Shown here: in pieces, positions 5,804 to 5,955 of the stretch | Position numbering within the stretch: position 1 is the stretch's first letter | How the letters are laid out: the number at the start of each line of letters is the position of its first letter | Virus record (IMG/VR): IMGVR_UViG_3300021400_001366 | Span: 32,001 to 96,000 of that record | Origin: a virus | Lineage: Duplodnaviria; Caudoviricetes | Length of the DNA stretch: 64,000 bases | Direction: 5' to 3' (one strand) | Program-made: the position numbers and the translations under genes | Notes under the pieces: generated by a model | What the model saw: only the letters and a program-made list of their open reading frames with translations | Told to the model about the DNA's origin: nothing | Databases searched by the model: none

Positions 5804-5955
5804 CGGGAACTAGCTCAGTAGGTTAGAGCAGCGGCCTTGGGGCGGTAGTGTAAAGAGCACACTAGAAAAGCAAGAGTCTAGTAGCGTAAGGGCGGTACTT
5901 AGACGCTCCACCAATAAGCCGTGTGTCCAGAGTTCAAGTCTCTGGTTCCCGACCA
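5804..5955 (+). tRNA. tRNA-Ile(UAU) interrupted in the anticodon (halves 5804-5838 and 5914-5955)
   Basis: Joining the halves gives a canonical 77-nt cloverleaf: CGGGAAC/GTTCCCG, GCTC/GAGC, GCGGC/GCCGT with loop CTT|ATAA, CCAGAG-TTCAAGT-CTCTGG, A73, CCA. Confidence 0.85.
5839..5913 (+). ncRNA. 75-nt tRNA-like (Ala-like) element nested in the tRNA-Ile anticodon
   Basis: GGGGCG/CGCTCC acceptor with G3-U70, A73, CCA; GTGT/GCAC D-stem; CTAGA/TCTAG stem with a 10-nt loop; TAAG-GGCGGTA-CTTA T-arm. Confidence 0.8.

What the first reader, a model, noticed from the sequence alone, without database searches (positions are those of the whole stretch)
5804..5955. A tRNA inside a tRNA: tRNA-like element inserted precisely in the anticodon of tRNA-Ile(UAU)
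Seen: removing exactly 5839-5913 yields a canonical 77-nt tRNA with loop CUU|AUAA, so the insert lies between positions 34 and 35. The insert runs from G1 to CCA of a second cloverleaf with no extra bases and no target duplication. It has Ala identity elements (G3-U70, A73) but a 10-nt non-decoding loop. It shows no group I core or bulge-helix-bulge. Established: RNase P cuts 5' of tRNA-shaped RNAs leaving a 3'-OH, some anticodon nucleases (colicin E5, zymocin) cut at 34/35, and Rnl5-type ligases join 3'-OH to 5'-P. Inference: the inner tRNA mimic acts as an intron excised by host tRNA-processing nucleases, and the phage ligase/PNK (15093, 28580) seals the halves. That would make the AUA decoder conditional on phage enzymes and might release a decoy. 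Alternative: a fossil of one tRNA ligated into a cleaved tRNA. tRNA introns are known in some large phages; I cannot confirm whether this nested form is described.
Basis: partly seen in the sequence, partly recalled or inferred. Interest (0 to 1): 0.92.

Follow-up and report, generated by a model that had tools for sequence, protein, structure and literature searches.

The report
tRNA-shaped intron inside phage tRNA-Ile
A rumen phage's only AUA-reading isoleucine tRNA gene is split in the middle of its anticodon by a 75-base insert that is itself folded like a tRNA. This design recurs in several phage lineages that all carry an RNA ligase, which points to an unproven kind of tRNA splicing that uses tRNA-trimming enzymes plus a ligase.

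Summary
Window 5804-5955 is a real tRNA gene (Rfam tRNA, 49 bits) with a 75-nt insert at 5839-5913. Uninterrupted homologues in other phages read ...GGCCTT|ATAAGCCG. This fixes the junction between positions 34 and 35 and the identity as Ile(UAU), not Pro as ARAGORN's intron mode calls it.

The insert alone scores poorly as a tRNA (15.7 bits). Against its one homologue (L033), its cloverleaf keeps 6 compensatory pair changes spread over all four helices. An independent metagenome contig carries the same nested gene, so it is not an assembly chimera.

Ten distinct inserts of five sequence classes (45-77 nt) sit at the same site in tRNA-Ile(UAU) of about four phage lineages. Each begins at the first base of an acceptor stem and ends in CCA.

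Every carrier record at least 21% complete (7 of 7) encodes a PF09414 RNA ligase, against 1 of 11 records with an intact gene. Here the ligase is an intein-split Rnl5-type enzyme, with a kinase-HD healing enzyme and RlaP.

Splicing by RNase P, a 3' endonuclease and the phage ligase is the best-supported mechanism, but no RNA data cover the locus. Lak megaphage introns (Devoto 2019) are the only precedent I found in print. This scan has noted the same kind on other DNA several times.

The parts
5804..5838 (+). 5' exon of tRNA-Ile(UAU): acceptor 5' strand (C1), D arm, anticodon-stem 5' strand and loop bases C32 U33 U34
   Evidence: Rfam RF00005, 49 bits across 5804-5952. ARAGORN calls tRNA-Ile(tat) after removal of the insert. 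Uninterrupted homologues share this sequence.
5839..5913 (+). 75-nt tRNA-shaped insert. Acceptor stem 5839-5845/5903-5909 (G3-U pair). D arm 5848-5851/5857-5860. Third arm 5862-5866/5877-5881 with a 10-nt loop at 5867-5876. T arm 5886-5890/5898-5902 with the non-canonical loop GGCGGUA at 5891-5897. Discriminator A at 5910, CCA at 5911-5913.
   Evidence: Six compensatory pair changes against L033:148-222 in all four helices. RF00005 gives only 15.7 bits. No other Rfam family matches.
5914..5955 (+). 3' exon of tRNA-Ile(UAU): A35 U36 A37 A38, anticodon-stem 3' strand, variable loop, T arm, acceptor 3' strand, A73, encoded CCA
5223..5297 (+). Free-standing tRNA or tRNA-like gene (anticodon loop CUUUGAC, ends ACCA) with the same unusual T loop, GGCAGUA, as the insert family. 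Probably a paralogue of the insert.
   Evidence: RF00005 36.3 bits. The insert model R1 scores 27.6 bits, E 1.4e-5. ARAGORN does not call it.
5727..5802 (+). tRNA-Thr(UGU), 1 nt upstream of the split gene; part of the same tightly packed array
5960..6043 (+). tRNA-Leu(UAA), 4 nt downstream of the split gene
13465..14490 (+). RlaP-family nucleotidyltransferase (RNA-repair associated)
   Evidence: PF10127, 57 bits. Among the records tested it is found only in carriers G000, G005 and G007.
15093..17453 (+). Rnl5-type (DraRnl/NgrRnl-like) ATP-dependent RNA ligase with an N-terminal OB domain. A 356-aa Hint/LAGLIDADG intein (nt 15666-16733) is inserted in motif I, KMHG|C...HN|S. This is the candidate sealing enzyme.
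   Evidence: PF21189, PF09414, Hint and LAGLIDADG_2. TIGR02306, 48 bits. PDB 5COT, E 0.003, over the OB domain. Sequence and intein boundaries.
28580..29557 (+). P-loop polynucleotide-kinase-like domain fused to an HD phosphohydrolase domain. This is the candidate end-healing enzyme.
   Evidence: PF13671 75 bits and PF01966 32 bits. TIGR04075 Pnkp kinase region and the CCA-enzyme HD region.

Best explanation
The 152-nt gene encodes a precursor of the phage's only AUA-reading tRNA, tRNA-Ile(UAU). Its anticodon is interrupted between U34 and A35 by a tRNA-shaped intervening RNA.

Proposed mechanism:
- The insert folds on its own into an acceptor-stem/T-arm stack with A73-CCA, preceded by U at -1. 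It therefore presents the determinants that bacterial RNase P uses.
- RNase P cuts 5' of the insert's G1, leaving U34 with a 3'-OH.
- A second endonuclease cuts directly after the insert's CCA. It is not identified. An RNase Z-type enzyme that cuts after CCA, or an RNase E/Y-type enzyme acting at the A|AU step, would leave A35 with a 5'-phosphate.
- The two exon halves stay paired through the outer acceptor and anticodon stems.
- The phage's Rnl5-type ligase (after protein splicing of its intein) seals the nick. The kinase-HD enzyme could heal the ends if needed.
- A free 75-nt tRNA-like RNA is released. It has G3-U, A73, CCA and conserved loops, and may have a role of its own.

Shown here: the anatomy, the covariation, the recurrence at the same site, the conservation of the exons, and the co-occurrence with ligase and kinase genes. 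Inferred: every enzymatic step and the existence of the spliced RNA.

The confidence of 0.5 is for the whole statement. I put about 0.8 on a functional intervening RNA that is removed at the RNA level, and about 0.45 on the specific route of RNase P, a 3' endonuclease and the Rnl5 ligase.
For: (1) The exact junction is fixed by uninterrupted homologues. All 11 complete carrier genes become tRNA-Ile(tat) after removal of the insert.
(2) The insert's cloverleaf is supported by 6 compensatory changes.
(3) Ten distinct inserts of five sequence classes (45-77 nt) lie at the same CUU|AUAA site. Each starts at the first acceptor-stem base. The 45-47-nt classes keep only acceptor stem, T arm, discriminator and CCA.
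(4) In a search that did not require CCA, all 5 distinct inserts in a tRNA context end in ACCA. Several of the host tRNA genes do not themselves encode CCA.
(5) Exons are conserved with compensated acceptor and T stems while the inserts are unalignable. Within one clade at 68-87% flank identity, three insert classes occupy the site.
(6) The carriers' tRNA arrays hold Ile(GAU) but no intact Ile(UAU). AUA makes up 22% of Ile codons in this genome.
(7) A PF09414 ligase is present in 7 of 7 carriers at least 21% complete and in 1 of 11 records with an intact gene (Fisher p 2.5e-4, about 0.015 when counted by lineage). No carrier has RtcB. The P-loop kinase is present in 5-6 of 7 carriers.
(8) The same design occurs at 34/35 in a tRNA-Lys(UUU) of carrier G009, with an insert that the model of this insert family detects.
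(9) No ribozyme family matches and the phage has no splicing endonuclease.
(10) From established knowledge, not tested here: RNase P prefers U(-1), G(+1), a 12-bp acceptor/T stack and RCCA. RNase P and RNase Z leave 3'-OH and 5'-P ends. Rnl-type ligases join such ends.
Against: - There is no RNA evidence. The three metatranscriptome assemblies laid on the region have no contig over 5804-6071, so the spliced form, the free insert and even transcription are unobserved.
- No known bacterial enzyme is established to cut exactly after an internal CCA in the likely hosts. The phage's own beta-CASP nuclease is not shared by the other carriers.
- Rnl5-type ligases are characterised as sealing nicks in duplex RNA (my own knowledge), not anticodon-loop nicks.
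- Ligase, kinase and RlaP modules are usually read as defence against host anticodon nucleases, and they are commoner in large phages.
- One carrier genome (G005) also has a nested insert without CCA, so the CCA rule is not universal.
Confidence: 0.5

Rival explanations
1. The insert is still an intron, but it is removed by heal-and-seal chemistry rather than by RNase P. A metal-independent endoribonuclease (a host or phage enzyme of the anticodon-nuclease type) cuts at both borders and leaves 2',3'-cyclic phosphate and 5'-OH ends. The kinase-HD enzyme heals the ends and the ligase seals them, as in the T4 Pnkp/Rnl1 repair of PrrC-cut tRNA-Lys.
For: The kinase co-occurs with carriers almost as well as the ligase does, and in G005 it lies next to the ligase gene. 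The 34/35 site is where colicin E5 and zymocin cut (my own knowledge). The site is the same in Ile(UAU) and Lys(UUU).
Against: It does not explain why every insert is tRNA-shaped from its first base to CCA, nor why the minimal versions keep exactly the acceptor/T-arm minihelix. No such nuclease has been identified.
Confidence: 0.15
2. The gene is not spliced. The useful product is the inner tRNA-like RNA, released by ordinary tRNA end-processing, or the composite RNA itself acting as a decoy or scaffold. The outer tRNA halves serve only as a processing and expression cassette. AUA is read by host tRNA.
For: The insert's loops are conserved between two distant phages. ARAGORN calls the inserts of another class as complete tRNAs with anticodon CUA. 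A free-standing paralogue with the same T loop exists at 5223-5297.
Against: The interrupted anticodon loop halves CUU and AUAA, and the whole outer cloverleaf, are kept intact with compensatory changes in every carrier while the inserts are swapped. A mere cassette would not need an intact anticodon loop.
Confidence: 0.15
3. It is a dead gene. A mature tRNA-like RNA was once ligated into a nuclease-cut tRNA-Ile, copied back into DNA, and has no present function.
For: The G1..CCA borders match the ends of a mature tRNA. CCA is present in inserts even where the host tRNA genes lack an encoded CCA. An RNA ligase is present in the same genomes.
Against: Exons are conserved and covary across about four lineages. 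The insert's own stems covary. The gene is 151 of 152 bases identical in an independent sample whose flanks differ by 1.7%. No intact Ile(UAU) copy exists in the carriers' arrays.
Confidence: 0.08
4. The insert is an unrecognised small self-cleaving or self-splicing ribozyme.
For: Introns in bacterial and phage tRNA anticodon loops are normally self-splicing (group I).
Against: No Rfam ribozyme or intron family matches at E up to 10. Inserts as short as 45 nt, from five unrelated sequence classes, share only tRNA-like helices.
Confidence: 0.04

Closest known systems
'Enigmatic' tRNA introns of Lak megaphages (Devoto et al. 2019, PMC6784885, Fig. 4, Table S6)
   Same: These are inserts in the anticodon loop of phage tRNA genes with no ribozyme match. 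At least one 'may itself encode a tRNA'. The printed intron sequences end in an acceptor-like stem plus a T arm.
   Different: Lak introns lie next to position 37, carry a 5' hairpin leader of about 30 nt before the tRNA-like part, and do not end in CCA. Here the insert lies between 34 and 35, has no leader, and runs exactly from G1 to CCA. The paper proposed no mechanism and noted no link to a ligase.
Phage T4 anticodon-loop repair (PrrC cut of tRNA-Lys, healed by Pnkp, sealed by Rnl1); from my own knowledge
   Same: A phage kinase/phosphatase and an RNA ligase reseal a break in a tRNA anticodon loop while the halves stay paired. This genome carries a kinase-HD enzyme and an RNA ligase.
   Different: T4 repairs damage to an uninterrupted tRNA at 33/34. 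Here the break would be programmed by an encoded insert at 34/35, and the ligase is Rnl5-type, not Rnl1.
Group I introns in bacterial and phage tRNA anticodon loops (Rfam RF00028)
   Same: An intervening sequence inside the anticodon loop of a bacterial-type tRNA gene, with the 5' exon ending in U.
   Different: The insert is 75 nt rather than 200 nt or more. It has no catalytic core and no Rfam match.
Archaeal and eukaryal bulge-helix-bulge tRNA introns, some with a functional RNA inside (the archaeal pre-tRNA-Trp intron holding a C/D box RNA); from my own knowledge
   Same: A protein-dependent route of cutting followed by ligation, with an intron that can itself be a functional RNA.
   Different: There is no bulge-helix-bulge at the borders. 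The position is 34/35, not 37/38. The phage has no EndA homologue and no carrier has RtcB.
tRNA-like punctuation processing (MALAT1 mascRNA, mitochondrial tRNA punctuation); from my own knowledge
   Same: RNase P and RNase Z release a tRNA-shaped RNA from a longer transcript purely by its shape.
   Different: In those cases the flanks are not rejoined. Here the flanks must be ligated to make a working tRNA.

Membership tests
tRNA (Rfam RF00005): outer gene | Score at or above the gathering threshold (29 bits) with a full cloverleaf | tested here: met
   49 bits over 5804-5952 with the insert treated as an anticodon-loop insertion. ARAGORN calls tRNA-Ile(tat) after removal of the insert.
tRNA (Rfam RF00005): inner insert | Score at or above the gathering threshold; canonical T loop and 7-nt anticodon loop | tested here: not met
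   15.7 bits, E 0.34. The T loop is GGCGGUA and the third loop has 10 nt. The cloverleaf shape itself is supported by covariation. It is tRNA-shaped but not a decoding tRNA.
Group I intron | Conserved catalytic core (P3-P9), length of about 200 nt or more, Rfam RF00028 match | tested here: not met
   The insert is 75 nt. Scans at E up to 1 and up to 10 returned only tRNA and one chance cis-regulatory hit.
Bulge-helix-bulge (EndA-spliced) tRNA intron | Two 3-nt bulges carrying the splice sites, separated by a 4-bp helix | tested here: not met
   By inspection of the sequence and the folds: the 5' border abuts the insert's acceptor stem, and the 3' border follows the single-stranded ACCA. No 4-bp helix lies between the two sites.
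Bulge-helix-bulge (EndA-spliced) tRNA intron | Splicing endonuclease (PF01974) and an RtcB-type ligase available | tested here: not met
   PF01974 is absent from the 137.6-kb record. RtcB is absent from all 7 carriers. The host genome is unknown.
Lak-type tRNA-like phage tRNA intron (Devoto 2019) | Insert in the anticodon loop of a phage tRNA that ends in a tRNA-like acceptor/T-arm module, with no ribozyme match | tested here: met
   for this locus. for the Lak sequences.
Lak-type tRNA-like phage tRNA intron (Devoto 2019) | Position next to nucleotide 37 and a 5' leader hairpin before the tRNA-like part | tested here: not met
   Here the junction is 34/35 and the cloverleaf starts at the first inserted base. 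Compare Table S6 of the paper.
Rnl5 (DraRnl/NgrRnl) RNA ligase: the gene at 15093-17453 | N-terminal OB domain followed by a nucleotidyltransferase domain with the motif I lysine | tested here: inconclusive
   All scores fall below the curated cut-offs because the intein splits the domain: PF21189 24 bits, PF09414 23 bits, TIGR02306 48 bits (cut-off 151), PDB 5COT E 0.003. Motif I reads KMHG|intein|SSG, and the extein is 430 aa, similar to the 408- and 436-aa frames in G007 and G005.
RNase P substrate | Acceptor/T-arm coaxial stack, U(-1), G(+1), 3' RCCA | not testable with these tools
   All four sequence features are present. Cleavage itself needs an enzyme assay.

The most novel reading that the evidence does not exclude
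Some phages run a third kind of tRNA splicing, neither self-splicing nor EndA-dependent. A tRNA-shaped intron is recognised and cut out by the cell's tRNA end-maturation enzymes: RNase P at its 5' end and a CCA-end endonuclease at its 3' end. The phage's own ATP-dependent RNA ligase then rejoins the anticodon. The tRNA would mature only in cells expressing the phage RNA-repair module, and the excised tRNA-like RNA (G3-U, A73, CCA, conserved loops) would be a second functional product. The G1..CCA borders further suggest that such introns arise when a mature tRNA is ligated into a nuclease-cut anticodon loop and is copied back into DNA.
Probability: 0.4. Interest if true: 0.92.

Novelty: new variant of a known kind. 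Interest (0 to 1): 0.8.

Why it matters
Bacterial and phage tRNA introns are thought to be self-splicing group I introns, and protein-dependent tRNA splicing is considered a trait of archaea and eukaryotes. A recurrent intron class whose only conserved feature is the shape read by RNase P and other tRNA end-processing enzymes, found only in genomes with an RNA ligase, would have three consequences.

- It would add a new splicing route.
- It would give phage 'RNA repair' ligases a housekeeping substrate.
- It would offer a natural way to make a tRNA conditional on phage gene expression.

It also has a practical side. Standard tRNA finders either miss these genes or assign them the wrong amino acid; ARAGORN called Pro, Thr or Arg for what is Ile(UAU). 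Phage tRNA repertoires are therefore mis-annotated.

Tried and rejected
- **RNA evidence.** Three metatranscriptome assemblies, one from the source sample, were laid on 5000-7000. None has a contig over 5804-6071, and no joint was seen at the insert. Only contigs, not raw reads, were available. This says nothing for or against splicing.
- **Close relatives of the phage.** A search of IMG/VR with the neighbouring 211-aa protein found nothing. The exact insert 22-mer found nothing.
- **More members of this insert's own sequence class.** Only L033 was found in IMG/VR. The metagenome scan returned the same contigs plus chance hits. The covariation test therefore rests on two sequences.
- **ARAGORN's reading as tRNA-Pro(UGG) with an intron after the anticodon.** Rejected on comparative grounds.
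- **A phage-encoded 3' cutter.** A beta-CASP/RMMBL nuclease lies beside tRNA-Asp and tRNA-Met at G000:130063-131502. It is absent from the other carriers, so it is not a general component.
- **Other enzymes sought in this genome.** No CCA-adding enzyme (PF01743) and no EndA (PF01974) were found.
- **Cultured phages.** GenBank phages hold no nested homologue, only an unannotated intact tRNA-Ile(UAU) in Dulem virus 39.
- **Literature.** Four full-text searches found no paper on tRNA-shaped introns or a tRNA nested inside a tRNA other than Devoto 2019.

Full report
**What is in the sequence.** The window lies in a 137.6-kb IMG/VR virus record, about 89% complete. By the runs that hold it, the record comes from ruminant gut samples. 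Bases 5223-6043 hold a tight tRNA array. Within it, tRNA-Thr ends at 5802, the gene in question runs 5804-5955, and tRNA-Leu starts at 5960. Rfam's tRNA model matches 5804-5952 at 49 bits, with a 78-nt insertion placed in the anticodon loop. ARAGORN without introns skips the gene.

**Where exactly the insert lies.** ARAGORN's intron mode puts the intron after the anticodon and calls tRNA-Pro(UGG). This matters because several 75-nt deletions give a plausible 7-nt loop. I settled it by comparison.
- An 18-mer from the D arm and anticodon stem found 24 IMG/VR loci. The uninterrupted ones read GGCCTT|ATAAGCCGTGT, which is loop CUUAUAA, and ARAGORN calls them tRNA-Ile(tat). A GenBank phage, Dulem virus 39, has the same intact gene.
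- These intact homologues also start with C1-G72 and have A73, so those features do not indicate proline here.
- In other carriers, ARAGORN's rule gives Thr, Arg or Pro for near-identical tRNA bodies, depending on the first bases of the insert. Removing the insert at 34/35 gives tRNA-Ile(tat) in all 11 complete cases.

**Is the insert really tRNA-shaped?** On its own the evidence is weak: 15.7 bits against a threshold of 29, E 0.34, and an MFE z-score of -2.8. One homologous insert exists, in the tRNA-Ile(UAU) of an unrelated 70-kb phage contig (L033).
- The two inserts are both 75 nt and align without gaps.
- On the cloverleaf G1-G7/A65-C71, 10-13/19-22, 24-28/39-43 and 48-52/60-64, 95% of cells pair, against 38-64% when the partners are slid. 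Six pairs change on both sides, with at least one in every helix.
- The G3-U pair, the discriminator A, the CCA, the D loop AAAGA, most of the 10-nt loop and the odd T loop GGCRGUA are conserved.
- With two sequences this is suggestive rather than statistical. The slid controls (0-2 double changes) make chance unlikely.

**Not an artefact.** A contig from a different study (run X2) spans 5681-7000 without a break. It shows 22 differences overall but only one in the 152-nt gene, A5875G, in the insert's 10-nt loop, where L033 also has G.

**It is one of a family.** A pattern anchored on the 3' junction found nested tRNA-Ile(UAU) genes in 11 further IMG/VR loci, giving ten distinct inserts including this one. 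They fall into five sequence classes.
- Class 1 is the present one (75 nt).
- Class 2 is a 46-47-nt version that keeps the same acceptor ends and a GGCAGCR T loop but has lost the D arm and the third arm.
- Class 3 is a 45-nt minihelix with a canonical TTCAACT loop.
- Classes 4 and 5 are full-length (74-77 nt). ARAGORN calls the class 5 inserts as tRNAs with anticodon CUA.

Every insert starts at the first base of an acceptor stem directly after CUU. The search pattern forced the CCA end, so I repeated the search anchored on both exons with the insert left free. All five distinct inserts found in a tRNA context again end in ACCA. Several of the host tRNA genes do not encode their own CCA.

Flank comparison shows about four lineages: this phage, L033, L037/L042, and a larger clade. 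Within that clade, at 68-87% flank identity, three different insert classes occupy the same site. The exons therefore stay fixed, with compensated acceptor and T stems, while the inserts are exchanged.

A covariance model of class 1 also detects two further elements.
- One is an insert at 34/35 of a tRNA-Lys(UUU) in the complete 169-kb carrier G009.
- The other is a free-standing tRNA-like gene in this window at 5223-5297, with the same GGCAGUA T loop. It is probably a paralogue of the insert.

Other nested tRNAs exist in G005 and G001. The G005 example has no CCA and fits a cut after the discriminator instead.

**What it is not.**
- No group I or other ribozyme family matches.
- The borders form no bulge-helix-bulge.
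- The phage has no EndA.
- No carrier has RtcB.

**Enzymes in the genome.**
- 15093-17453 encodes an RNA ligase with an N-terminal OB domain like that of Naegleria NgrRnl. It falls in the DraRnl family, that is Rnl5-type. A 356-aa Hint/LAGLIDADG intein sits inside motif I, KMHG|C...HN|S.
- 28580-29557 is a Pnkp-like P-loop kinase fused to an HD domain.
- 13465-14490 is an RlaP nucleotidyltransferase.

**Co-occurrence across records.**
- A PF09414 ligase is present in all 7 carriers that are at least 21% complete, and in 1 of 11 records with an intact tRNA-Ile(UAU). Fisher's test gives p = 2.5e-4 on records and about 0.015 on lineages.
- The kinase shows nearly the same pattern.
- RlaP is found only in the three carriers with class 1 or 2 inserts.
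It is support, not proof.

**Mechanism.** The only features shared by all inserts are those that tRNA end-processing enzymes read: an acceptor/T-arm stack, a discriminator and CCA, with U at -1. By established knowledge, RNase P would cut 5' of G5839 and leave U34 with a 3'-OH. A cut directly after CCA would leave A35 with a 5'-phosphate. Thermotoga RNase Z makes such a cut, and RNase E-type cleavage at the A|AU step is conceivable. These ends are what an ATP-dependent ligase joins while the outer tRNA body holds the halves together, as in T4 anticodon-loop repair.

I rate the statement that this is a functional intervening RNA removed at the RNA level at about 0.8. I rate the specific route of RNase P, a 3' endonuclease and the Rnl5 ligase at about 0.45. 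The main gaps are the unidentified 3' cutter, the duplex-nick preference known for Rnl5 enzymes, and the complete lack of RNA data.

AUA makes up 22% of Ile codons, and the carriers' arrays contain no intact Ile(UAU). A working product would therefore be useful to the phage.

**Comparison with what is known.** The only printed precedent I found is Devoto et al. 2019. That paper reported 'enigmatic' introns in Lak megaphage tRNAs, one of which may itself encode a tRNA. Their Table S6 shows a different layout: a leader hairpin followed by a tRNA-like module, no CCA, next to position 37. No mechanism was offered. Four literature searches found nothing further. Earlier follow-ups of this scan described the same kind of insert on other phage DNA. 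The present locus adds four things:
- a junction fixed by comparison;
- covariation within the insert;
- turnover of inserts at one site;
- the association with ligase, kinase and RlaP genes.

I class it as a new variant of a barely described kind. If the proposed mechanism is proven, it would be a new category of splicing.

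Noticed in passing
window 6730-7000 (within the ORF-free stretch 6719-7098): Contigs from three separate metatranscriptome runs (X19, X15, X17) cover this non-coding stretch downstream of the 211-aa gene, while they do not cover the neighbouring genes. 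It looks like an abundant non-coding RNA. Another first-stage note (e1-5779131) flagged its closed stem and heptamer repeats.
   Followed up: partly
window 15666-16733: A 356-aa intein (Hint plus LAGLIDADG homing endonuclease) is inserted exactly inside nucleotidyltransferase motif I (KMHG|C...HN|S) of the phage RNA ligase.
   Followed up: partly
window 5223-5297: A tRNA-like gene found by Rfam (36 bits) but not by ARAGORN. Its anticodon loop is CUUUGAC (UUG), it has A1-U72, and its non-canonical T loop GGCAGUA is identical to that of the L033 insert. Whether it decodes Gln is unknown.
   Followed up: partly
G000:C1:130063-131502, minus strand (outside the window; L116:1064-2503): A 479-aa beta-CASP/RMMBL RNA nuclease (aCPSF1/Cas14-like, 242 bits to NF045584) lies directly downstream of tRNA-Asp and tRNA-Met and next to a ClpP-like protease gene. 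Homologues occur in G018 and G027, which also carry ligases.
   Followed up: partly
L005:1849-1951 and L022 (415-kb and 230-kb phage records G023/G024): A tRNA-Ile(UAU) with a 27-nt hairpin insert that is not tRNA-shaped, at the same CUU|AUAA site. These jumbo phages encode RtcB and an Rnl1-type ligase, and G023 also carries PF09414. This may be a different intron type.
   Followed up: no
L026, L027, L044, L046, L063, L066: the 12 nt before the outer tRNA: A conserved motif, CGCGAGATTTAT, lies directly upstream of the nested tRNA-Ile gene in one phage clade. It may be a promoter or a processing signal. It is absent in this window, where tRNA-Thr abuts the gene.
   Followed up: no
L121:46-180 (G005) and L122:45-161 (G001): Two further nested tRNAs. 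In G005, a tRNA-Lys(UUU) carries a 62-nt AT-rich tRNA-like insert that lacks CCA. In G001, a tRNA carries a 44-47-nt minihelix insert ending in GCCA; its identity (Glu UUC or Val UAC) depends on the junction chosen.
   Followed up: partly
L119:2439-2533, minus strand (G009): A weak match to the Y RNA-like family YrlA (34 bits, below its cut-off of 69) inside the tRNA array of a carrier phage.
   Followed up: no
L006:8079-8172, L019 and L013:8400-8487: tRNA-Ile(UAU) genes with greatly enlarged variable regions in 170-420-kb phages. They may be the 'two anticodon arms' form noted earlier in this scan (e1-126203).
   Followed up: no
L092:678-738 (metagenome contig OFRO01003315.1): An intergenic element with the GGCAGUA T arm and a CTCCACCA end, but with no tRNA exons around it. 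It may be a free-standing or decayed relative of the insert family.
   Followed up: no
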